In this document: piece by piece, positions 54,392 through 64,000 of the stretch
Position numbering within the stretch: position 1 is the stretch's first letter
How the letters are laid out: every line of letters starts with the position of its first letter
IMG/VR virus record: IMGVR_UViG_2706795940_000001
Span: 1-64,000 of that record
DNA length: 64,000 nt
From: a virus
Lineage: Duplodnaviria; Caudoviricetes
Strand: one strand, 5' to 3'
Notes under the pieces: generated by a model
The model's database searches: none
The model's input: only the letters and a program-made list of their open reading frames with translations
What the model was told of the DNA's origin: nothing
Made by a program: the position numbers and the translations under genes

Positions 54392-54425
54392 CCAACCCCC
54401 GCCTGTTATGTCAGGCGGGGGTTGG
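54392..54425. terminator. hairpin between convergent genes
   Basis: 14-bp stem ccaacccccgcctg/caggcgggggttgg. Confidence 0.65.
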
Positions 54426-54831
54426 ACTCTTCGTTTCCGGGACCGTACTTGACGTCCGATATGAACGTTCTGATCAAGTCGTCCAGAACTTTTCGCTGTC
54501 TCGACGTTAGGACTTCAGATCCCGTGGGCGGGGTGTACGGGGGAGCGGTTGCGTCCCAGGATTCCCCGAGCCATTCGGTCACCTTCTTCAGGGGGACAGA
54601 CAAGGCCTCTGCGACCCTCTCTAAGGTCTGCCGCTCAACGAGTCGTGGATCCGCACGGCCTGTGATCAGCCGGACTACCGTTGTGGTGTGTAGCCCAGCC
54701 TCTTTAGCCAAGGCGTTATAGCTAGGCTCACCAGTCCTGGGATTGGTTAACCCTTGCTTCAACATGGCCTTGTGCCACGGCTGCGGTACCTCGTTGTTTC
54801 TCTGCATGACACTGATCAGTGTCTCATGCAC
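54406..54831 (-). CDS. immunity repressor (HTH); alternative start 54807
   Basis: SYNALAKEAGLHTTTVVRLITG HTH; LTSRQR C-terminal motif; divergent from early operon near integrase. Confidence 0.8.
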   Translation of the reverse strand: MHETLISVMQRNNEVPQPWHKAMLKQGLTNPRTGEPSYNALAKEAGLHTTTVVRLITGRADPRLVERQTLERVAEALSVPLKKVTEWLGESWDATAPPYTPPTGSEVLTSRQRKVLDDLIRTFISDVKYGPGNEESNPRLT

Positions 54832-54918: not shown

Positions 54919-55152
54919 GTGTCTTCGCCACAATTGGCCATAGGAGCAGAAGCTACGATCGGTAGCTGGGGTTATCGCTGGACGGTTATGGGATTCAAGA
55001 TCCCCGGGCCGGCCTCCAGAGAGACAAAGGCGATCATCGCCCGCGAGGATTCGCGGCGATTTCCCACCGACGGCTTTGTCGGAAATGGTCGTGCTCGACC
55101 ACTAATCCGGACCCGGGTTCGTTCTTCCCTTCTTCAGTCGGCCGGCAAGTGA
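54919..55152 (+). CDS. hypothetical protein (Cro position, no clear HTH)
   Basis: AGGAG RBS, overlaps recE start. Confidence 0.45.
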   Translation: MSSPQLAIGAEATIGSWGYRWTVMGFKIPGPASRETKAIIAREDSRRFPTDGFVGNGRARPLIRTRVRSSLLQSAGK

Positions 55153-56192
55153 TGACGGCAGAAACGCCCAACGACATTCTCACCCAGGGCGCCGTAATCA
55201 ATGGTCGGGCGCAGGTTGTCGGCAAATTCGCCAACGGCTCCCCAGAGTGGCACGCTGCCCGTCGTGGTCATCTGGGCGGCTCGGAAATCTCGGCCGTCGT
55301 GCGCCTGTCGCCCTTCGAGTCGCGGTTCTCGTTGTGGCACCGCAAGAAGGGTGAACTCGAAGACATCGAAGAGACGCCGGCCATGGAGTGGGGAACACGC
55401 CTTGAGCCGGTTGTCTATGACAAATATGCCGAATCGATCGACCCGGATGAGTACATCACGACGGGTCACACCTTCCGATGCTTGATCCCTGGCCGCGGCT
55501 GGATGAACGCAAATCCCGACGGGATTGTGTGGGGTCGCAACAAAGAGACCGGCGAGTGGTTCATCAAGCGAATCCTTGAGATCAAGACCAGCGCGCGTGG
55601 CGAAGGCTACGGGCCTAATGGGTCCGACGGCATCCCGATCTACTACCGGTGCCAGGTGCTGTTCTACATGTACGTTCTTGGCGTCAAGCAGGCCGAGTTG
55701 GCGGCGCTGATCTCTGGCGTCGACTATCGCACCTACCCGGTCAAGTACAACACCGAGGACGTCAATTTCCTCACCGAGGCCGGCGACCAGTTCATGGCCG
55801 AGTTGCGCGACGACATCACCCCCAGCATCAGTGACGACATCGCCTCCTACGAGGCGGTGCGCGAGCTCAACCCTGAGCTGGACCCAGACCTCGAGGTGAC
55901 GGTTCCGATCGCCCTGGGGGAGCGGTACCGGTCCATCGAAGAGGCCTATCGCGAGATCAAGGACATGCGCCACGGCGTACACGCCGAGATCCTCGAGCAC
56001 GCCGGCGCTGCGCGACTCATCAAGATGGACGACGACGAGGTCATCGCTCGGCGCCAGATGCCGGGACGCGGCAGCGTGCCGTACCTCCGCTACATCCCTC
56101 CGGAGAAGGAGCCCAAGGTCAGCGTCGTTGAGGCGCACCAGGATGCGCTCGACACGGCGGATCGGCGCGCGGCGATGTACCCATCTGTCTAA
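55149..56192 (+). CDS. RecE/YqaJ-like exonuclease
   Basis: EWHAARRGHLGGSE, WGTRLEP, NPDG, LEIKT, YRCQV. Confidence 0.92.
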   Translation: MMTAETPNDILTQGAVINGRAQVVGKFANGSPEWHAARRGHLGGSEISAVVRLSPFESRFSLWHRKKGELEDIEETPAMEWGTRLEPVVYDKYAESIDPDEYITTGHTFRCLIPGRGWMNANPDGIVWGRNKETGEWFIKRILEIKTSARGEGYGPNGSDGIPIYYRCQVLFYMYVLGVKQAELAALISGVDYRTYPVKYNTEDVNFLTEAGDQFMAELRDDITPSISDDIASYEAVRELNPELDPDLEVTVPIALGERYRSIEEAYREIKDMRHGVHAEILEHAGAARLIKMDDDEVIARRQMPGRGSVPYLRYIPPEKEPKVSVVEAHQDALDTADRRAAMYPSV

Positions 56193-56199
56193 TGTCTAG

Positions 56200-56228
56200 T
56201 TGACTCCTGCATAGACATGACGTACTGT
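56200..56228 (+). promoter_or_regulatory. SigA-type promoter TTGACT-N17-TACTGT overlapped by TGTCTA/TAGACA sites
   Basis: Near-consensus -35/-10 with 17-bp spacer. Confidence 0.8.
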
Positions 56229-56234
56229 GAAGGA

Positions 56235-56520
56235 GTCGGCAAGAGGGAAGTGAGAAACTCTCTAATCCCTACTGAGACACAGGACTTGCGACGCCGGCGT
56301 CAAGCTCGCCCCTGCTGAAGTTTGAGATGGGTCCTCAGTAGGGGAGGTAAGGAGCCCCAGCAGGGAACAACCCTGGCGCCAAGACGGGGCCCTGCTTGCG
56401 GTGCCGTTCCTTTCGGGCACTGCTCGAAGGCTCCTGCGCCGGCGTCGCCCCACACCTCCAGATGAGCACCGAGTGCCGCGGAGCGGATTCAACAATCAAC
56501 TCAAAGTTGATAGTTCACAA
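56235..56520 (+). ncRNA. candidate structured leader / ncRNA
   Basis: No + strand ORF; 11-, 12-, 8- and 7-bp helices including crossing pairs. Confidence 0.6.
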
Positions 56521-56548
56521 CAAATGAGAGACAAGGGGATTCAATACA

Positions 56549-56830
56549 ATGTCACGTAAATCCATGCAGGCAGACATCGACACCCTCTACGCATGGCTGG
56601 ACCAGCAGAGCGCCTCGGTCGGCGCCGCGATCGAGGCTGTGGGGGAGATCAACAAGGTGCTCAGCAATCCGCCGGCAATCGGCGTCCACGAGTTCGTCGC
56701 GCCATGGCAGATCAAGATGGAGCTGCTCAACATCTACAAGGGCGACGTCGATGCAGCGCGGAGCGCCTTCGACTGGCTGGAGGAGGGTGCCGAGAAGGTG
56801 ACGGTCGCCACCGAGGAGGTGCCGGCGTGA
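56549..56830 (+). CDS. hypothetical protein
   Basis: AAGGGG RBS, 93 aa. Confidence 0.75.
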   Translation: MSRKSMQADIDTLYAWLDQQSASVGAAIEAVGEINKVLSNPPAIGVHEFVAPWQIKMELLNIYKGDVDAARSAFDWLEEGAEKVTVATEEVPA

Positions 56831-57351
56831 TCATCAAGCCGCCAGCCATGGCCCACCCGTTCCAGCTCGCCGCCCTCCCGAACACCGGCCCCGAGGACCC
56901 CTACGGCTGCGTCATGAACGTCGTCAGCTGGATGAAGGGCGACACCGACATCACGGGGGAGCCGGACTGCGTCAACCACCACCTGATCAACCTGTGCCAG
57001 ACCTTCAACGACGAGGTTCTCGATCGCTTCGGCAGCCACGAGCGTGAGTATCCAGAGATGCTGCGCCTGGTTGGTGTTGCCTCGGCACAGCAGTCCATGC
57101 GCCTCCTCGAGATCGCCGAACTCGTCACCGACACCGCGGTCGTCACCCAGGGGGAGAGCCGGGAGTGGGCTTTCCGGAAGCTGCGATCGCCGCTCGGAAT
57201 CTACGGAGCGCACAGCGTATCCCGACAGATCGCCACCAGTGCATCGAGCTTCGACGACGCGGTCGATCAGATCCTCGACATCATCCACGACTTCCGATCC
57301 ACCTTCGCCGAGGAACTCGGCCTCAACCAGCTCGAGGAGACCCGTGTCTGA
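56827..57351 (+). CDS. hypothetical protein
   Basis: GGAGG RBS; GCVMNVVSW..G...I...PDC motif. Confidence 0.75.
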   Translation: MIIKPPAMAHPFQLAALPNTGPEDPYGCVMNVVSWMKGDTDITGEPDCVNHHLINLCQTFNDEVLDRFGSHEREYPEMLRLVGVASAQQSMRLLEIAELVTDTAVVTQGESREWAFRKLRSPLGIYGAHSVSRQIATSASSFDDAVDQILDIIHDFRSTFAEELGLNQLEETRV

Positions 57352-58069
57352 ACTGCAGCAAGCCGCTCAGGGACAGCAGTCCAACAACCCAGTCAGCTTC
57401 ATCTACAGCCACGCCAAGGACATTCAGAACGTCCTCACCAAGGGCACGGACATGGACCGGTGGCTGCAGATGGCACGGCTGGCCGTGATGCGCGACCAGA
57501 ATCTCGTCGCGTCGGCCAAGCGCGACCCAGGATCGCTGATGCAGGCCCTGCTCGACTGCGCAGAGAAGGGCCACGTCCCAGGCACCGAGGACTACTACCT
57601 CGTGCCACGCAAGGGCGGCATCCAGGGCATGGAGTCCTGGAAGGGTATCGCCAAACGAATCATGCGATCCGGTCGATACCAGTCGATCGTCAACGAGGTT
57701 GTGTACGAGGGCGAGACCTTCGAGTTCAACCCGAACACGATGGATCGCCCGGTACACAACATCAACTACATGACCCGGACCTCTGGCAAGCCGGTCATGT
57801 CCTACGCCTACGCCCTCGACCACGACGGGAAGCCATCTTCGGTGGCCATCGCGGACCCCCGGTACATCGCCAAGGTCAAGAAGAACTCGCGCGGATCCGT
57901 CTGGGAAGACTGGGACGAGCAGATGTACCGCAAGACCGCGGTCAAGATGCTCCAGGACTACGTCGACACCTCGTCGGTCGACCGTCGCGATGTGTCTACC
58001 GTACAGGTAGACGATGCAAACGTGATCGATGTCGACGACACCTTCACGGCGCGGGAGGCCGGCGAATGA
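57344..58069 (+). CDS. recT: RecT-like ssDNA annealing protein
   Basis: SLMQALLDCA, YYLVP, W..WDEQMYRKTAVK. Confidence 0.9.
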   Translation: MSELQQAAQGQQSNNPVSFIYSHAKDIQNVLTKGTDMDRWLQMARLAVMRDQNLVASAKRDPGSLMQALLDCAEKGHVPGTEDYYLVPRKGGIQGMESWKGIAKRIMRSGRYQSIVNEVVYEGETFEFNPNTMDRPVHNINYMTRTSGKPVMSYAYALDHDGKPSSVAIADPRYIAKVKKNSRGSVWEDWDEQMYRKTAVKMLQDYVDTSSVDRRDVSTVQVDDANVIDVDDTFTAREAGE

Positions 58070-58770
58070 GCGGCGACATCAAGTTCCGATCCGACATGCG
58101 CGTCGAGCTCGTCGACTGGATGGGTGAGGATCAGCGCGTCGTCGAGGCGGCGAAGGTCTCAACGCTGGGCGATCGATCCCGCGGGGTCGAGGCGACTGAG
58201 GGCTTCATCGACTTCCTTGACCGGAACCGACACGGATCGCCGTTCGAGCACTCCGTCTTCACCTTCCTGGTCGAGTGCCCCATATTCGTTTCGCGTGAGT
58301 TCATGCGCCACCGAATCGCCTCGTACAACGAGGAATCCGGTCGATACAAGGTCATGAAGGGCGTGTTCTACGTCCCGGCCGACGACCGGCCGCTGGTCCA
58401 GGTGGGCAAGCCGGGTGAGTATCGATTCGAGGCCGGGACGCTCGAGCAGCACGAGCTGGTGACAGACCTGTTCCAGCTCGCCGCCGATACCGGCTACAAC
58501 CTCTACCAGACCATGCTCGACGCCGGCATTGCCCGGGAAGTTGCGCGCGACGTCCTGCCGTTCCAGCTGTACACCTCGTTCTACGTCACCATGAACGCGC
58601 GCGGCCTGATGAACTTCCTCAGCCTTCGCGTCGGCGATGAGACAGCGGCCTACCCGAGCACGCCGCTGTACGAGATCGACCTGGTGGCACGGCAAATGGA
58701 GAAGCACTTCGCAGAGAAGATGCCGATGACGCACAAGTCATTCGTGCAGAACGGCCGGGTGGCGCCGTGA
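58066..58770 (+). CDS. thyX: flavin-dependent thymidylate synthase
   Basis: HGSPFEH, REFMRHRIASYNEESGRY, NARGLMNFLSLR. Confidence 0.97.
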   Translation: MSGDIKFRSDMRVELVDWMGEDQRVVEAAKVSTLGDRSRGVEATEGFIDFLDRNRHGSPFEHSVFTFLVECPIFVSREFMRHRIASYNEESGRYKVMKGVFYVPADDRPLVQVGKPGEYRFEAGTLEQHELVTDLFQLAADTGYNLYQTMLDAGIAREVARDVLPFQLYTSFYVTMNARGLMNFLSLRVGDETAAYPSTPLYEIDLVARQMEKHFAEKMPMTHKSFVQNGRVAP

Positions 58771-59000
58771 CCGCGTATGCGCAGCTGAACCATCCCGAGG
58801 TCCGTGTCGACGGCAACTATGTCGTCCCGTTCAACGACCTCATCGGTCTGATCCCCGCGGAGGTGTCCGCCGGCATGGATCTTCAGGTCCGAGTGCCGCG
58901 GAGCGGACTGCGTGGACTCGGACGGGTCTTCGAAATCGACTATTACGCACGACAACTGACCATTGACGTGGAATGGATAAACGTGGAGGTAAAAGCATGA
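58767..59000 (+). CDS. hypothetical protein
   Basis: Coupled overlaps. Confidence 0.65.
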   Translation: MTAYAQLNHPEVRVDGNYVVPFNDLIGLIPAEVSAGMDLQVRVPRSGLRGLGRVFEIDYYARQLTIDVEWINVEVKA

Positions 59001-59614
59001 GGACGGAAGCGGACAAGGTCGCGGTGGAGGAGTTTGACGTACGTCGCCGGCGGACCATGTCGGACCTCCAAGAGGCGCTTGACCTCCTGGGAAGCTCAGC
59101 CATTCGGCACGCGGAAGGTCACTACCGAGACACCGTACGCCTCGAAGCTCTGGTGGATCAGGCGCTCGAGATCCTGGGCGAGAAGAACGACGGCCGGCTG
59201 CTCGACGGCATCCGCCGACTCATCGCCGAGCGAGACGAGGCGCGTCAGGCGAAGCTCGAATCCGAGCAGCGAGCCGGGTTCGCGGAGGCGTGCTGCGGGT
59301 GCGACAACGGCGGCGAGCATGTGCTGCCGACCCCTTCCCCGATCAAGCCAGAGCACTGGCGATTCGCTGCCGAGCTGATCCGCAAGTCCGGCCAGATCGG
59401 TTCGTGGACTGCAGACAACCTCGAGTGGCAGGCACAGGGCATGGAGGCCGAGCTAGCCGAGGCAGAGCGGATCCAGGACGAAGCCATCGAATCAGCTATC
59501 ACCGCGTACTTCAAGGCGGCGCACGGTTGCCAACCGAAGACCGTGTACCCGCACGTTCGCACCGGCATGGAGGCCGCACTGCGCGCGGCGTCGAAGGTGG
59601 GCGAGAATGCCTGA
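58997..59614 (+). CDS. hypothetical coiled-coil protein
   Basis: GGAGGT RBS. Confidence 0.7.
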   Translation: MRTEADKVAVEEFDVRRRRTMSDLQEALDLLGSSAIRHAEGHYRDTVRLEALVDQALEILGEKNDGRLLDGIRRLIAERDEARQAKLESEQRAGFAEACCGCDNGGEHVLPTPSPIKPEHWRFAAELIRKSGQIGSWTADNLEWQAQGMEAELAEAERIQDEAIESAITAYFKAAHGCQPKTVYPHVRTGMEAALRAASKVGENA

Positions 59615-59924
59615 GATCACCATCTACGGGGCATCCGACGACCTGGTTGAGGTCGAAGGTGCTGTGCGCGACGAGTTCAATCTTGGGCGCGATGGCACCC
59701 GCCTGCGACTGAGAGCACCGGACGGACTGCAGTTGGACGTTGCAGCAGACTTTTGCAACCCGGTCGTCGGCGGGCGACTCGACTGGGTGATCGGTGTGTA
59801 TGCGGTCAACGCGTACCCGTCGTGGGGGATCCGATTCCACGAGCGCCCGGGCTGCGAAGGCGATCCGGCGGTCACCATCGAAGTGCCCGAGGGGACGACC
59901 GTCGAGGAGGTGAAGTATGACTGA
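59607..59924 (+). CDS. hypothetical phage protein
   Basis: IYGASDDLVEVEG motif. Confidence 0.8.
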   Translation: MPEITIYGASDDLVEVEGAVRDEFNLGRDGTRLRLRAPDGLQLDVAADFCNPVVGGRLDWVIGVYAVNAYPSWGIRFHERPGCEGDPAVTIEVPEGTTVEEVKYD

Positions 59925-60450
59925 GCCTGAGATCTCCGAGGGGGAACGAGAGGGCGCCCGCGATCTTCTCGAGGCGCTACGCGCGTCGTTGAAGGTCAAC
60001 GTCACGGGTGCGCAGACCGAAGCTCCCCGAGGTCACATCCTGACCGTCACGAAGTGCGAAGACTTCGACCCCGAATACCCGAGCTTCGACTGGTCGATCG
60101 AATGCCAGAACGTGGACAAGTGCGGCGGCTGGCAGGAGTGCCACGAACTGCACGAGATCAGTGGCGCGTCTGCGGCGGACGGACCGTGGGACTGCGACGA
60201 GAACGCGCCGTGGGAAGGAATGGACGAGTTCGAGTTCCACGGCGTGCTGCACACGTGGCACTGGGGGCACGGGTGGACCGTGCCCTACCGCGGGTGTGTG
60301 GTAGCGGGCAACGACTGGATCTGCGATTACGCGCACGACATCGCCCTCGATCACGGGTGTGGCCGGCACGAAGTCGAGGACGACTGGGATGACATGGACT
60401 GCTATCTGATTCACGTTCGGGCCCTCGCAAGCAGTGAACCGGAATCGTGA
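59917..60450 (+). CDS. hypothetical acidic Cys/His-rich protein
   Basis: GGAGG RBS, 177 aa. Confidence 0.7.
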   Translation: MTEPEISEGEREGARDLLEALRASLKVNVTGAQTEAPRGHILTVTKCEDFDPEYPSFDWSIECQNVDKCGGWQECHELHEISGASAADGPWDCDENAPWEGMDEFEFHGVLHTWHWGHGWTVPYRGCVVAGNDWICDYAHDIALDHGCGRHEVEDDWDDMDCYLIHVRALASSEPES

Positions 60451-60710
60451 CCAACCACGCCGCGATCGAGCTGGACGCGGCGAGACTGTACCGCCAGATC
60501 CAGCACAAGGTGTTCGATGACCCCTGGCCCGACCTGCCCGATTTCATCCGGTGCAGGATGCGTGAGATCGCACAGGAGTGCCGTGACGCACTCCTCGGTG
60601 GACACCACCGAATCTACAGCGACTACAGCGAATTCATGGATTACCGATCCGGTGTCTGCGCTGAGTGCTGCACCCCCTACCCCTGTGACATGAGGAGATT
60701 CTTTCAATGA
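60447..60710 (+). CDS. hypothetical protein
   Basis: CAEC...YPC motif. Confidence 0.7.
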   Translation: MTNHAAIELDAARLYRQIQHKVFDDPWPDLPDFIRCRMREIAQECRDALLGGHHRIYSDYSEFMDYRSGVCAECCTPYPCDMRRFFQ

Positions 60711-60907
60711 CTGGACCATCCCTGCCAAAGCTGTCCTACGGCAAGCGCGAACTCGCCGACGCCGTGGGAGTGAGCGAGGCAACCATCGACCGTGAGATCA
60801 AGGCCGGCCGCATCGAGGTCCGCTACATCCGCAACAAGGTCGTCATCATGCACGAGGAAGCGGTGCGCTACCTCAACGACGCCCCCACTGAGCGGGAGGA
60901 CGTCTGA
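60707..60907 (+). CDS. excisionase-like HTH DNA-binding protein
   Basis: ELADAVGVSEATIDREIKAGRI. Confidence 0.8.
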   Translation: MTGPSLPKLSYGKRELADAVGVSEATIDREIKAGRIEVRYIRNKVVIMHEEAVRYLNDAPTEREDV

Positions 60908-61158
60908 TGACCCCCGCGGAGCACTACAAAGAGGCGATTCGACTACTGGGCGAGTCGGAGAGGGTGACGAAGGACGCTCATCGGCAGCGCGCGGAGATCG
61001 ACGTCCTGAATCCGGTGGACAATGCTCGCCTTCGGGGGACCATCAACCGCGCCGAGCAGCTGCAGAGGAAGGCGCAGACTCACGCCCTACTTTCAATCGC
61101 TGCAGCCGGCCTGCCGCTCACCGTGCTCATCGACAACGATGACACTGCGGAGGACTGA
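60907..61158 (+). CDS. hypothetical protein
   Basis: MTPAEHYKEA..LL...AQTHALL motif. Confidence 0.75.
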   Translation: MTPAEHYKEAIRLLGESERVTKDAHRQRAEIDVLNPVDNARLRGTINRAEQLQRKAQTHALLSIAAAGLPLTVLIDNDDTAED

Positions 61159-61161
61159 TCA

Positions 61162-61353
61162 ATGTCCACGATCATCACCGACCGTGTTGTCACCACCAGC
61201 GTCCAGTTGGAATGCGACAGTGGAACCCTCAAGCTGTCAGATCTTCAACGATTCGTCGACGAGTGCGAGGACGAGGCAATCCCTGGGTTCTCCGAGGTCA
61301 CCGTCGGCCGAGAGTGTACGTGGATCCGGGCCCAGTTCACGTCCGGGGACTGA
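61162..61353 (+). CDS. hypothetical protein
   Basis: GGAGG RBS. Confidence 0.65.
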   Translation: MSTIITDRVVTTSVQLECDSGTLKLSDLQRFVDECEDEAIPGFSEVTVGRECTWIRAQFTSGD

Positions 61354-61354
61354 C

Positions 61355-61386
61355 TTGCCAAGCCGCGGGTAACTGTCTAATGTCTA
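61355..61386 (+). promoter_or_regulatory. putative promoter TTGCCA-N17-TAATGT with tandem TGTCTA sites
   Basis: CTGTCTAATGTCTA identical to 56185-56198. Confidence 0.55.
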
Positions 61387-61577
61387 ACCCAACATGTGAG
61401 TTCGCCCACCTCTTCGGCGCCTGTAACGCCCCAGCGAGCCACTTAGTCACCTACCGCTGGTGGGGCCAAATGCTCCTCTGTGACCAGCACTTCCAGGAAA
61501 TGAACGTCAGCACCGACAAGCACGTACTCGAGACTCTCGCGGTCGACGCGAGCACCGAGTACCGCGCAGCGGACTGA
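61380..61577 (+). CDS. small hypothetical protein
   Basis: C..C...LCDQH motif; no RBS. Confidence 0.45.
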   Translation: MSNPTCEFAHLFGACNAPASHLVTYRWWGQMLLCDQHFQEMNVSTDKHVLETLAVDASTEYRAAD

Positions 61578-61608
61578 CAAACACACCATACAAGAGGGGA
61601 GCACTGAA

Positions 61609-62745
61609 TTGACTACGCAAACCCAGGAAACCAAATACGGGGTCAGATTGAGCGGACTTCGGGAAGCACACAACATGACGGCCGAGGAAGCCTCGGCACG
61701 CATGGGGTGGGAGCCATCGAAGTGGGGCCAGATCGAAAGCAGCCAAGGCGATTTCATCGAACACACCCAAGACATGGTTGCCGTCGCCCGGGACTTCGGT
61801 GTCGACGAGGCCTACCTCCGACCGAAGCTGCCGAAGCGTTGGATGGTCAACACCAAGCATGGCAAGCCCATCACCATCGTGAAGCGACTGAACGCGTTGC
61901 GTGACGCCGGCTGGACCGAGTCGGACATCGCCGAGGCGACTTACATGCCCCTCGACCAGCTGCGAGACGTGCGCCACCGCGTAGAGACCCTGGCACTGAA
62001 CCACAACATGAACCGGTCCGCCAGCACGAAGAACATCGAGGCCGAACTGGTCATCCGATTCCTCGAGAACACCCCAGACATCTCGACCCACGACGCCGAC
62101 GAGCTGGTCCCCGCAACGTCAGTCCGGGCCCACATGCTCGCGCTCGAGGACGTCGGGTACAGCCGGTTGACCTACACCCACCGCGGGCCCGACCGTGACG
62201 GGATCTTCCTGCAGATGGTCTCGTTCAATCATCACGTGGCGCAGGCATTGTCGAAGCCCAACGCCGACCACATCCTCGTGCGCAACGACATCGCGCAGGA
62301 GGTGCTGTCGCTGCCCACGGACGTGAACGCGCACATCCCGAGCTCCCTCGGCGCCACCCGTCGGGCCCAGGCCCTTGTCGCATGGGGGTACGACCCATCC
62401 CAGATCCGACGCGAGGCTGGACTCACCGCGGACCAGCTGCACCGCATCCTGTGGACCGACTGCAGCGCGCCCCTGGATCGCAATGATGGCGTGAATCTTG
62501 TCCGCACATTCAGCAAACTCGAACACATTCCCGGCCGTAGCAAGAATTCGATCGACCTCGCCAAAAAGAATGGCTGGCCGCTTCCGTTCCAGTGGGATGA
62601 ATACACAATCGACCGTGCGCAGACAAAGCCGTGCAAGGGTCGAGAAATCGTCAACACGATTGACTTGGACAATATGGAGCGTCGGACCGAAGTTCTGAAC
62701 AAAGAGTTCGAAGAACTCCTCCAGACCCTAGACAAGGTGGCGTAA
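61609..62745 (+). CDS. multi-HTH DNA-binding protein
   Basis: XRE-like HTH at N-terminus; repeated R..AL...G[WY] modules. Confidence 0.75.
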   Translation: MTTQTQETKYGVRLSGLREAHNMTAEEASARMGWEPSKWGQIESSQGDFIEHTQDMVAVARDFGVDEAYLRPKLPKRWMVNTKHGKPITIVKRLNALRDAGWTESDIAEATYMPLDQLRDVRHRVETLALNHNMNRSASTKNIEAELVIRFLENTPDISTHDADELVPATSVRAHMLALEDVGYSRLTYTHRGPDRDGIFLQMVSFNHHVAQALSKPNADHILVRNDIAQEVLSLPTDVNAHIPSSLGATRRAQALVAWGYDPSQIRREAGLTADQLHRILWTDCSAPLDRNDGVNLVRTFSKLEHIPGRSKNSIDLAKKNGWPLPFQWDEYTIDRAQTKPCKGREIVNTIDLDNMERRTEVLNKEFEELLQTLDKVA

Positions 62746-63735
62746 GTGCCACGCATTCGGGCCATTAAGCCAGAATTCTGGGCATCACCGAACCACCCTG
62801 CAGATCCGTGGGCGCGGCTGCTGTTCGTGGCCATGTGGAACTGGGCCGACGACGCCGGAACCGGTACCGCCAACGCTCGGGAGCTACTCGGATTCGCCTT
62901 CCCGAACGACGAGAACATCGACACGACGGACATCAAGCGGATGTTCACCGCGGTTGCTGACTCCTACGGTGTCGTCTTCTACAAGGTGGCTGGGCGGGAC
63001 TACTTTCACGTCCCCACGTTCAACGATCACCAGAAGTTTGACCGCCGGCGCGGCGGTCGGCACCCGCTCCCTGCGGACGCCGAGGAGCTCTTGTACGGCA
63101 GTTTGTTGCAAGTTACAACCAAATCGGAAAGTTTGTTGCAAGTTACAACCAATTTTCCGGCTCGTGACCCAGAAACCGACCCTGACCTGCATCAGAGCAT
63201 CGATACGGCGCGCTGCGCCGACGAGTCGGCGCAAAAACAGCGCCGGAACAGGGGAACAGGGGAACAGGGGAACAGGGGAACAGGGGAACAGGGGAACGAA
63301 AAAGCGGAAGATCCTGACGGATCTTCATCCTCGGCAGTCGCTGTCGCGACGACCGAGCCCGCTCGCGACGAACCGGGGTTCCGGGATGACGTGGATCGGC
63401 TCTGCGAGCGCTTGGCCGAGCGCGTCCGGCAGAATGCCGTCACGTCCAAGCCGGTCGTGATCCGGAAGGACTGGAGACGAGCGGCAAGGTGTCTAATCGA
63501 CAACGATGGGGTAGACTACGACCGGGTTGTCCGAGTCCTCGACTGGTCACAAGCTGATCCGTTCTGGACCGCGAATATCCGATCGATGCCGAAACTGCGT
63601 GAGAAGTTCGAAACTCTCGAAATGCAAATGAACCGGAATTCTCGTAGATCGAATGCCTCAATGGATTCGACACATCGAGGACTCGCGGATATGCAACGGA
63701 TATTCGGAAATGCCGACCAGAAAGCAATTCAGTGA
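62746..63735 (+). CDS. RepA-like replication initiator
   Basis: MPRIRAIKPEFW, WNWADDAG, DPFWTANIRSMPKLREKF. Confidence 0.88.
   Translation: MPRIRAIKPEFWASPNHPADPWARLLFVAMWNWADDAGTGTANARELLGFAFPNDENIDTTDIKRMFTAVADSYGVVFYKVAGRDYFHVPTFNDHQKFDRRRGGRHPLPADAEELLYGSLLQVTTKSESLLQVTTNFPARDPETDPDLHQSIDTARCADESAQKQRRNRGTGEQGNRGTGEQGNEKAEDPDGSSSSAVAVATTEPARDEPGFRDDVDRLCERLAERVRQNAVTSKPVVIRKDWRRAARCLIDNDGVDYDRVVRVLDWSQADPFWTANIRSMPKLREKFETLEMQMNRNSRRSNASMDSTHRGLADMQRIFGNADQKAIQ
63100..63152 (+). repeat. 23-bp direct repeat x2 (iteron-like)
   Basis: AGTTTGTTGCAAGTTACAACCAA at 63100 and 63130. Confidence 0.85.
63245..63297 (+). repeat. (GGAACAGG)6.6 tandem repeat
   Basis: Direct count. Confidence 0.95.
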
Positions 63736-64000
63736 AGAATACGAATGACACATACGCAATTGCGGTGTCTGTTCTGACGAAAGCTTCGATGCTCGATTCC
63801 AGGATCACCCTCCCCGCGGGAAAAGAAGAACGTGAATTCAAATACCAGGCGTGGGCGTCGGTGTTCACCCACGCCGGCGGCATGTGGCTCACCGAGTCGC
63901 TCGCGGCCGTCGACAACCACTACCGAGATGGCAAGTTCGCGATGATGCCGGCCGACGTCGTTGGCTACGTCCACGCGTTGCCGATGGACTCCTCGCCCGA
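63732..64000 (+). CDS. putative helicase loader/inhibitor-like protein (3' truncated by window)
   Basis: GTGA overlap with repA; AW....AV..HY.....MPADV pattern. Confidence 0.55.
   Translation, partial: MKNTNDTYAIAVSVLTKASMLDSRITLPAGKEEREFKYQAWASVFTHAGGMWLTESLAAVDNHYRDGKFAMMPADVVGYVHALPMDSSP

What the first reader, a model, noticed from the sequence alone, without database searches (positions are those of the whole stretch)
56186..56548. ~310-nt structured leader RNA behind a strong early promoter, splitting recE from recT
After TTGACT-N17-TACTGT there is no ORF for ~310 nt. Helices: 56266-76/56334-44 (11 bp); a perfect 12-bp crossing helix gcgacgccggcg/cgccggcgtcgc (56288-99/56437-48); aggagcc/ggctcct (56350-56/56429-35); hairpin 56398-423. 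The strand cagcaggg (56358-65) has three alternative partners (56310-17, 56371-75, 56390-96), suggesting a switch. GACGCCGGCGTC (56290-301) is self-complementary, allowing dimerisation. Candidates: a put-like antiterminator, a riboswitch-like leader for the recT-thyX operon, or an independent ncRNA.
Basis: partly seen in the sequence, partly recalled or inferred. Interest (0 to 1): 0.75.

Follow-up and report, generated by a model that had tools for sequence, protein, structure and literature searches.

The report
Phage folded RNA with ribosome-tail loop
The gap after recE in this Gordonia phage holds a truly folded, uncatalogued RNA, shared with related phages and prophages, and one exposed loop copies the end of the host's 16S ribosomal RNA; what it does is still unknown.

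Summary
Confirmed: window 56284-56448 (+) is a real structured RNA. It is a three-way junction (P1, P2, P3, with two hairpins inside P3). Compensatory changes preserve it in 19 copies: 10 in Gordonia cluster-CQ phages (single in CQ1, tandem in CQ2 and an IMG/VR relative) and 9 in prophage-like regions of 8 actinobacterial genomes. Across these, 94% of cells are paired, 24 of 36 pairs show double changes, and 0 of 500 shuffles do as well. No Rfam 15 family matches.

The promoter (-35 at 56200-05, -10 at 56223-28) keeps TANNNT in all phage relatives, but only the phage copies have it. Chromosomal copies lie 2-10 nt after capsid- or portal-type genes, mostly just before a strong terminator hairpin. 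The module is therefore autonomous, not a recT-thyX leader.

A family trait is a CCUU(U/C)C loop motif identical to the 16S 3' tail, found in 18 of 19 copies against 2.8 expected.

Best guess (about 35-40%): a lytic-phase phage ncRNA whose fixed scaffold presents an anti-Shine-Dalgarno-like loop that pairs with SD-like sites. Antitermination, decoy, ribozyme and riboswitch readings stay open. The scan had already met this family on two other genomes.

The parts
55149..56192 (+). recE-like exonuclease (YqaJ domain); upstream neighbour whose stop lies 8 nt before the -35
   Evidence: Pfam YqaJ 6.5e-26, PHROG 434
56200..56228 (+). SigA-type promoter candidate: -35 at 56200-05, 17-nt spacer, -10 at 56223-28 (TANNNT). 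The predicted start is about 56234-36.
   Evidence: Both hexamers are conserved in 7 phage relatives while the inner -10 positions vary. The generic consensus scan does not call it. No transcript data.
56244..56270 (+). 5' leader hairpin, variable in sequence among relatives
   Evidence: MFE fold; each relative has a hairpin here with different letters
56284..56448 (+). Core RNA module: invariant ACUU, then a three-way junction
   Evidence: CM scores 135-180 bits; covariation; z = -4.5
56288..56300 (+). P1 5' strand, pairs with 56436-56448 (13 pairs, the last a U-G kept in all 19 copies)
   Evidence: 7 of 13 pairs have compensatory changes; 99.5% of cells paired
56301..56308 (+). J1/2, near-invariant junction strand
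   Evidence: Invariant or nearly so in all copies
56309..56344 (+). P2 hairpin (56309-18 pairs with 56335-44); base conserved, distal part variable
   Evidence: 3 of the 4 modelled base pairs covary; the distal stem is replaced in CQ2 and chromosomal copies
56345..56349 (+). J2/3 junction strand (conserved G and A)
   Evidence: Alignments
56350..56435 (+). P3 domain: stem 56350-56/56429-35 abuts the P1 3' strand with no spacer. Inside are P3a (56359-65/56390-96), P3b (56398-405/56416-23) and a conserved 5-nt strand at 56424-28.
   Evidence: P3 has 5 of 7 pairs covarying, P3a 4 of 4, P3b 5 of 8
56406..56415 (+). P3b apical loop holding CCUUUC (56409-14), identical to the 16S rRNA 3' tail
   Evidence: 16S end read from genome G061; motif in 18 of 19 copies against 2.8 expected, mostly unpaired
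56453..56459 (+). 3' flank with CACCUCC, the upstream half of the anti-SD sequence (kept in CQ1 and the IMG/VR relative only)
   Evidence: Alignment; 16S end
56463..56489 (+). Highly conserved unexplained segment with a small hairpin at 56476-86. The AUG-led frame is not conserved.
   Evidence: Alignment A4: stops after 9 codons in three relatives and is frame-shifted in BrutonGaster
56495..56511 (+). Small A/U-rich hairpin, variable in sequence; no U tail, so not terminator-like
   Evidence: terminator scans
56533..56830 (+). SD (56533-39) and first ORF of the downstream operon (56549-56830, PHROG 16364, unknown function)
56827..58767 (+). Downstream genes: unknown 174 aa (56827-57351), recT (57344-58069), thyX (about 58105-58767)
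   Evidence: Pfam RecT 4.2e-26; Thy1 3.5e-49

Best explanation
56284-56448 encodes one copy of an uncatalogued, phage-borne structured RNA family.

Shown: a Y-shaped three-way junction in which P1 closes the module, P2 and P3 branch off, and P3 stacks directly on the P1 3' strand. The junction strands and junction-proximal pairs are nearly invariant, and the outer arms are freely replaced. The module is portable. In CQ phages it sits in a lytic-phase leader behind its own promoter, once or twice in tandem. In prophage-like elements it sits at the 3' end of structural-gene transcripts, in front of a terminator. An outer loop almost always shows CCUU(U/C)C, the last letters of 16S rRNA.

Inferred: the fixed core is a folding or protein-binding scaffold. 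The exposed anti-Shine-Dalgarno-like loop is the working end, pairing with purine-rich SD-like sites on mRNAs (host or phage, in trans or on the same transcript) to modulate translation during lytic growth. This would resemble the chaperone-independent C-rich-loop sRNAs of actinobacteria. The existence and fold of the RNA are near certain (about 0.9); the mechanism is a best guess.
For: Structure: compensatory changes in P1, P2, P3, P3a and P3b on a MAFFT alignment (87.5% paired, 12 pairs) and on CM alignments (93.5%, 17 of 36; 94.0%, 24 of 36, 0 of 500 shuffles, slid controls about 40%). Strand: invariant U-G pair, and z = -4.5 against -2.9.

Autonomy: 9 chromosomal copies in 8 genomes lie behind capsid, portal or other late genes (Pfam). 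Module and downstream terminator hairpin (-25 to -40 kcal/mol) fold side by side in G171, G043, G322 and G249; the other long folds were ambiguous.

Loop motif: CCUU[UC]C occurs in 18 of 19 copies against 2.8 expected from dinucleotide shuffles, and 0.08 per 150 nt in the window. It is mostly in predicted loops, and sits on the P3 arm in some copies and the P2 arm in others. Matches of 8-9 nt to the 16S tail occur in G061, G171, G181 and G043 (16S end). A motif that moves between arms argues for a displayed site rather than a fixed tertiary contact.

Precedent: the 6C sRNA binds mRNAs through C-rich loops without a chaperone (PMC6486639).
Against: No target was identified. Every SD is complementary to an anti-SD mimic, so complementarity to the downstream ribosome-binding site proves nothing. 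The strictly conserved junction is more than a simple seed-presenting sRNA would need, and hints at a bound factor, a catalytic core or a ligand pocket. In the window there is no terminator after the module, so a discrete sRNA would require processing. Per-copy matches to the 16S tail are only marginal in CQ1 (shuffle frequency 0.09-0.3). One copy (the first tandem copy of the IMG/VR relative) lacks the motif. There are no expression data.
Confidence: 0.38

Rival explanations
1. Cis-acting processive antitermination or factor-loading site (put-, nut- or EAR-like). The nascent module binds RNA polymerase or a phage factor, so that transcription reads through downstream terminators.
For: In the phage it lies directly behind a promoter at the head of a long operon. 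In 7 of 9 chromosomal copies a strong hairpin follows within a few nt, with a co-oriented gene beyond it. The near-invariant junction suits a protein or polymerase contact. Tandem copies exist.
Against: No terminator-like site was found on the + strand of 56400-64000, although that scan requires a U tail. There is no sequence or structural likeness to a catalogued antiterminator RNA. This reading does not explain the 16S-tail loop motif. A constitutive antiterminator placed right before a terminator would make that terminator pointless.
Confidence: 0.15
2. Decoy or sponge. The scaffold shows a mimic of the 16S 3' tail to a factor that normally acts on that tail, for instance a host toxin RNase that cuts the anti-SD region during abortive infection. 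This would protect ribosomes.
For: The loop at 56406-15 contains the motifs reported for MazF-mt3 and MazF-mt6, and the flank at 56453-59 contains that of MazF-mt11, which removes the anti-SD sequence (PMC12274833). RelE1 also cuts this region (PMC12620021, title and abstract only). PemK/MazF homologues occur in 47 of 47 genomes of the genus holding five chromosomal copies. The RNA is phage-specific, sits in accessory-gene-like variable positions and is expressed in lytic contexts.
Against: The reading is purely by motif likeness. MazF toxins are everywhere, so one search does not discriminate. A cleavable decoy is a weak inhibitor. The CACCUCC flank is confined to CQ1 and one relative.
Confidence: 0.12
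3. Self-cleaving ribozyme or nuclease-resistant processing element that cuts or protects polycistronic phage transcripts at gene borders.
For: The core is invariant, including the ACUU just 5' of P1 in all phage copies. The module lies at intergenic positions close to stop codons. Tandem copies occur. It is phage- and prophage-restricted, as many small ribozymes are.
Against: No match to any ribozyme family in Rfam 15. In chromosomal copies the UU of ACUU is simply part of P1. There is no biochemical evidence.
Confidence: 0.1
4. Metabolite- or ion-sensing riboswitch leader that controls the recT-thyX operon (one of the first reader's candidates).
For: A conserved junction could be a ligand pocket. 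The module is in a 5' leader in the phages, tandem aptamers are known for riboswitches, and terminator hairpins follow chromosomal copies.
Against: Gene association is not kept: neighbours include capsid, portal, HNH-like and Fic genes, and thyA replaces thyX in one relative. The module and the terminator fold together with no competing helix. The window has no terminator and no conserved SD-sequestering helix. The family was found only in phage-derived DNA.
Confidence: 0.07
5. Not an RNA: a protein-coding stretch or a DNA-level site (origin, recombination site, operator array).
For: Small ORFs exist. BrutonGaster annotates a minus-strand ORF across its copies. An A/T-rich segment follows the module.
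Against: There are frame-breaking indels among close relatives. G-U pairs are tolerated on the + strand only, including one invariant U-G. The fold is stronger on the + strand. GC skew is uninformative.
Confidence: 0.03

Closest known systems
6C sRNA of Mycobacterium/Streptomyces (Rfam 6C; PMC6486639)
   Same: Actinobacterial ncRNA whose pyrimidine-rich hairpin loops pair with G-rich mRNA sites without a chaperone. The size range is similar.
   Different: No hit to the Rfam model. 6C is a chromosomal, two-hairpin RNA with CCCC loops. This RNA is a three-way junction with an invariant junction and a CCUUUC loop equal to the 16S tail, it is phage-borne, and it is often transcript-embedded or tandem.
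put RNAs of phage HK022, lambda nut sites, and the EAR element (cis-acting antitermination RNAs; from my own knowledge)
   Same: Phage or operon-internal structured RNA placed behind an early promoter or ahead of terminators, acting on the transcript that carries it.
   Different: put is a pair of stem-loops, and nut is a small hairpin plus a linear box. Neither is a three-way junction, and no sequence likeness exists. Function here is untested.
phi29 pRNA (packaging RNA; from my own knowledge, Rfam pRNA)
   Same: Phage-encoded RNA of about 120-170 nt built on a three-way junction with outer loops that make intermolecular pairs. It is transcribed early.
   Different: No Rfam match. The host phages here use terminase-type packaging. 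The P1 palindrome that suggested dimers is not conserved. The loops resemble the 16S tail rather than each other.
Riboswitch aptamers with three-way junctions (purine, TPP, SAM-I/IV types)
   Same: A closing P1, conserved junction strands, variable outer stems, and occasional tandem arrangement.
   Different: No model matches, the gene context is not conserved, and no expression platform was found.

Membership tests
Any Rfam 15 family (4227 models, including 6C, pRNA, riboswitches, small ribozymes, raiA, tmRNA) | Covariance-model score at or above the gathering threshold | tested here: not met
   Window 55900-56900: best E = 3.8-5.8, all far below gathering. OneUp, IMG/VR and WilliamBoone loci: nothing over the module. 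Chromosomal loci L044 and L045: no match.
Riboswitch | Conserved structured aptamer core | tested here: met
   Junction strands are invariant and the helices covary. This is necessary but not specific.
Riboswitch | Expression platform with pairing mutually exclusive to the aptamer (terminator/antiterminator or SD sequestration) | tested here: not met
   Module and terminator coexist in the MFE folds of G171, G043, G322 and G249. The window has no terminator. The alternative pairings are not conserved.
Riboswitch | Consistent association with genes of one pathway | tested here: not met
   Neighbours include recE, recT and thyX, thyA, capsid, portal, an HNH-like gene and Fic.
Riboswitch | Ligand binding | not testable with these tools
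   Needs in-line probing or calorimetry.
put-like / processive antitermination RNA | Lies between a promoter and the terminators that it overrides, on the same transcript | tested here: inconclusive
   The promoter is upstream in the phage and terminators lie downstream in 7 of 9 chromosomal copies, but none was detected downstream in the window.
put-like / processive antitermination RNA | Confers terminator read-through in cis by contact with RNA polymerase | not testable with these tools
   Needs in vitro transcription or reporter assays.
Trans-acting base-pairing sRNA (6C-like) | Accessible seed loop complementary to target sites | tested here: met
   The CCUU[UC]C motif is in predicted loops in most copies, 18 of 19 against 2.8 expected.
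Trans-acting base-pairing sRNA (6C-like) | Discrete transcript with its own promoter and terminator | tested here: inconclusive
   The window has a promoter but no terminator. Chromosomal copies have a terminator but no room for a promoter. There are no transcript data.
Small self-cleaving ribozymes | Site-specific self-scission | not testable with these tools
   Only the lack of any Rfam ribozyme match could be shown.

The most novel reading that the evidence does not exclude
The family is an RNA counter-defence. A rigid three-way-junction scaffold displays a copy of the 16S rRNA 3' tail. In this window that means the loop at 56406-15 plus the flank at 56453-59, which together cover the motifs cut by the anti-SD-targeting MazF and RelE toxins of Mycobacteriales. 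The RNA would soak up or block such toxins, or another factor that reads the ribosome's tail, and so keep ribosomes working during lytic growth. That would be a new class of phage-encoded rRNA-mimic decoy, carried by phages and by prophage-like (possibly satellite) elements alike.
Probability: 0.12. Interest if true: 0.85.

Novelty: new variant of a known kind. Interest (0 to 1): 0.62.

Why it matters
Actinobacteriophages are among the best-sampled phages, yet almost nothing is known about their non-coding RNAs. This is a well-supported, uncatalogued RNA family with a fixed core and exchangeable arms. It appears in at least three different genomic settings, among phages and prophage-like elements of several actinobacterial genera. 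It displays the very sequence ribosomes use to recognise mRNAs. Whatever its role, translation control, decoy or transcription control, it is expressed from lytic-phase units and is directly testable in Gordonia terrae with existing phage-engineering methods. It also shows that the annotated 'empty' gap between recE and recT, and at least one annotated ORF in BrutonGaster, are really RNA genes.

Tried and rejected
- Rfam scans at permissive E-values found nothing.
- blastn of the phage collection found only 7 CQ records for the leader, and nothing beyond noise for the tandem first copies or the chromosomal types.
- Exact-pattern scans of IMG/VR found only OneUp, BrutonGaster and one relative.
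- A strict pattern scan of genome and metagenome collections gave three chance hits without P1 pairing.
- More distant RecE-bearing contigs (52-60% identity) have no module. A 372-nt 'gap' in one of them is probably an uncalled Cys-rich ORF.
- One CM hit (24.5 bits) was inside ftsZ and is a false positive.
- Public sequencing runs: no RNA holder listed.
- Pairing of J2/3 with the CACCUCC flank was rejected because J2/3 changes without compensation.
- The 21-codon frame from 56463 was rejected as coding.
- The ACUU-to-junction pairing cannot be tested because both sides are invariant.
- GC skew gives no origin signal.
- The recurring 14-mer at the recE stop looks like stop/start overlap context rather than an operator.
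- The tRNA scan finds nothing in the gap.
- The generic promoter scan does not call the promoter.

Full report
**What the window is.** The window is the first 64 kb of a 93,686-bp virus record. Its closest public relatives are Gordonia terrae phages of the genera Smoothievirus and Oneupvirus, that is subclusters CQ1 and CQ2. The length equals that listed for the CQ1 phage Cucurbita in PMC5559632. The local gene order is: integrase, a leftward repressor (54406-54831), a small ORF, recE (55149-56192, YqaJ domain), the gap in question, two ORFs of unknown function (56549-56830 and 56827-57351), recT (57344-58069) and thyX.

**Checking the observation.**
- *The gap.* It is real and is kept in every relative. 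It is about 355 nt in CQ1, and about 550-590 nt in OneUp, BrutonGaster and an IMG/VR contig.
- *Coding potential.* Close relatives differ by 1-, 2- and 4-nt indels throughout the gap, so none of its small ORFs can be conserved.
- *Promoter.* The hexamers lie at 56200-05 and 56223-28. The generic scan rejects them because the -10 matches TATAAT at only three positions. However, TTGAC and the T-A-N-N-N-T pattern are invariant in all seven phage sequences while the three inner letters change. That is what the actinobacterial SigA -10 consensus (my own knowledge) predicts. The promoter is plausible but unproven.
- *Fold.* The + strand of the whole leader folds with z = -3.2 against -1.1 for the - strand. 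For the core module alone the values are -4.5 against -2.9.

**The structure.** Aligning the relatives showed that CQ2 phages and the IMG/VR relative carry the central part twice in tandem, which defines a module of 160-220 nt. In the window it spans 56284-56448:
- an invariant ACUU;
- P1 (56288-300 with 56436-48);
- an 8-nt junction strand;
- P2 (56309-18 with 56335-44);
- a 5-nt junction strand;
- P3 (56350-56 with 56429-35), which abuts the P1 3' strand with no spacer;
- inside P3, hairpins P3a (56359-65/56390-96) and P3b (56398-405/56416-23) and a conserved 5-nt strand.

P1 has five different sequences among the phage copies, all of them paired. P3 shows A-U to G-C, U-A and G-U exchanges. 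On a plain MAFFT alignment of 8 copies, 87.5% of cells pair and 12 pairs have double changes, against about 40-54% paired when partners are slid. RNAalifold alone mis-pairs the junction. The pairing I used is the one supported by the WilliamBoone and IMG/VR exchanges.

**The family is wider than the phage cluster.**
- *Searches that added nothing.* Sequence and pattern searches found nothing beyond cluster CQ. Strict pattern hits in the genome and metagenome collections were chance, with no P1 pairing. Contigs with more distant recE genes lack the module. It therefore looks like an insertion specific to the CQ lineage at this position.
- *Covariance-model searches.* I reached bacterial genomes through a Nocardia prophage recE. 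Covariance-model searches then found nine further copies in eight genomes. Five are in one unnamed genus of 47 species, two in other genera of the same family sample, and two in an order-level sample.
- *A shorter version.* These copies are 115-136 nt: a 5-13 bp P1, the same two junction strands, P2, a 7-bp P3 with one hairpin, and again no spacer between P3 and P1. One 24.5-bit hit lay inside ftsZ and was discarded.
- *Covariation across all copies.* With all 19 copies aligned to the last model, 94.0% of cells pair and 24 of 36 pairs show changes on both sides. No shuffle out of 500 reaches any of the five measures, and slid controls give 39-47% paired. That alignment is fitted to the model, so it leans towards the structure. 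The independent MAFFT result and wholly new P1, P2 and P3 sequences (for example in G322 and G249) point the same way.

**Context of the chromosomal copies.** All are co-oriented with their neighbours and begin 2-10 nt after a stop codon. One follows a capsid gene (L044, followed by a Fic gene). One follows a portal gene (L047). Three follow a 156-aa gene downstream of a capsid gene and precede an HNH-like gene (L050, L051, L052). One lies between two roughly 495-aa late-type genes (L049). In seven of nine, a hairpin of -25 to -40 kcal/mol follows within a few nucleotides. In G171, G043, G322 and G249 the module and this hairpin form together in the minimum-energy fold. None of these copies has room for a promoter of its own. 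The promoter in the window is therefore a feature of the CQ insertion, not of the RNA family, and the RNA is not tied to recT or thyX. One close relative even carries thyA in place of thyX.

P1, P3 and the 56398-423 hairpin are correct.
- *The 11-bp helix.* The helix 56266-76/56334-44 is as stable here as P2 (-19.4 against -19.6 kcal/mol). It falls to -7.7, -11.1 and -10.6 kcal/mol in the three CQ1 relatives, where P2 stays at -12.5 to -20.9. It competes with P2 and is best read as fortuitous.
- *The three-partner strand.* The strand 56358-65 can indeed pair with the P2 5' strand about as well as with its P3a partner in three of four CQ1 phages. CQ2 and chromosomal copies have no counterpart. 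A switch is possible in CQ1 but is not a family property.
- *The palindrome.* The palindrome inside P1 disappears in copies that keep P1 through compensatory changes, so dimerisation by that route is unsupported.

**A displayed 16S-tail motif.** Two earlier notes of this scan, on other genomes, describe the same family. They propose that its loops mimic the ribosome's tail, and I tested that here.
- *Reference sequence.* The 16S rRNA of genome G061 ends in CACCUCCUUUCU.
- *Frequency.* The hexamer CCUU(U/C)C is present in 18 of 19 copies, against 2.8 expected from dinucleotide shuffles and a background of 0.08 per 150 nt in the window.
- *Placement.* In most copies it falls in a predicted loop. 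It sits in the P3 hairpin loop in CQ1, G181a, G043, G322 and G249. It sits in the P2 arm in the second tandem copies of CQ2 and in G061, G171 and G168.
- *Longer matches.* Matches to the tail reach 8-9 nt in four chromosomal copies (shuffle frequency 0.02 or less). In CQ1 they are only marginal copy by copy.
- *In the window.* The loop at 56406-15 carries the motif. The flank at 56453-59 carries the upstream half of the anti-SD sequence, but that flank is limited to CQ1 and one relative.

Because the motif moves between arms, it looks like a displayed working site rather than a fixed tertiary contact.

**Mechanism.** *Shown:* the family is a conserved, portable, + strand three-way-junction RNA. 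It is embedded in lytic-phase transcripts and carries an exposed anti-SD-like loop.

*Inferred (about 0.38):* the core is a scaffold and the loop pairs with SD-like purine tracts to tune translation. This is the way 6C sRNA uses C-rich loops without a chaperone (PMC6486639).

*Weaknesses:* no target is known, any SD would match, and the invariant junction suggests something more specific.

*Rivals:*
- cis-acting antitermination or factor loading (0.15), favoured by the promoter-proximal and terminator-proximal positions;
- a decoy for factors that act on the 16S tail (0.12), such as the anti-SD-cutting MazF and RelE toxins described in Mycobacterium (PMC12274833, PMC12620021); PemK-family genes are in 47 of 47 genomes of the carrier genus, which is compatible but not discriminating;
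- a ribozyme or nuclease-resistant processing element (0.10);
- a metabolite riboswitch (0.07), disfavoured by the varied gene contexts and the lack of an expression platform;
- a non-RNA explanation (0.03).

**Novelty and verdict.** No Rfam 15 model matches, and I found no paper describing this RNA; the literature search was limited. It is a new RNA family of a familiar general kind (phage-encoded structured ncRNA with a pyrimidine-rich loop). It was noted independently in this scan on two other genomes. The recT-thyX leader, switch and dimer interpretations are not supported, and the function remains open but is readily testable.

Noticed in passing
window 5877-5964: ARAGORN calls a tRNA of undetermined identity with a four-letter anticodon reading (gacg) at the head of a 7-gene tRNA cluster (5877-9373).
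   Followed up: no
L004:2777-3046 (BrutonGaster gp72, minus strand): The annotated 'hypothetical protein' on the minus strand lies across the two tandem RNA modules and has no counterpart in relatives. It is probably a spurious ORF call.
   Followed up: partly
L040:7623-8429: The IMG/VR/ENA relative with 78% identical RecE has a ThyA-type thymidylate synthase where the window and the CQ phages have ThyX, at the same operon position.
   Followed up: no
window 56186-56199 and 61374-61387 (also 49736, 50423): A 14-mer (TGTCTAATGTCTAG/A) recurs. It overlaps the recE stop codon, and at two other sites it sits at a TAATG stop/start overlap. It may be gene-junction context or a regulator site.
   Followed up: partly
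window 56463-56489: A 27-nt stretch of the leader is almost invariant from CQ1 to CQ2. It is not explained by pairing or coding: the AUG-led frame stops after 9 codons in three relatives and is frame-shifted in BrutonGaster.
   Followed up: partly
L001 (Abscondus genes 89 and 91): The homologue of window 56827-57351 is annotated 'tyrosine integrase' (174 aa), and a 57-aa ORF is annotated 'immunity repressor'. Pfam gives only a sub-threshold Dodecin hit for the window protein, so these names look doubtful.
   Followed up: partly
L034:6704-7076: A 372-nt 'gap' in a more distant recE-bearing contig reads as an uncalled Cys-rich (zinc-ribbon-like) ORF rather than an RNA.
   Followed up: no
L044:90-1313 (minus strand): A Fic/DOC-family gene lies immediately after the RNA module and terminator that follow a capsid gene in genome G061. 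The arrangement resembles an accessory (moron-type) gene or a phage satellite.
   Followed up: no
L050, L051, L052: Three chromosomal copies share the same setting: a 156-aa gene ending in WFR, then the module, a terminator, and a small gene starting with an HNH-like RGYGYDH motif. This suggests a recurrent operon boundary in one prophage type.
   Followed up: partly
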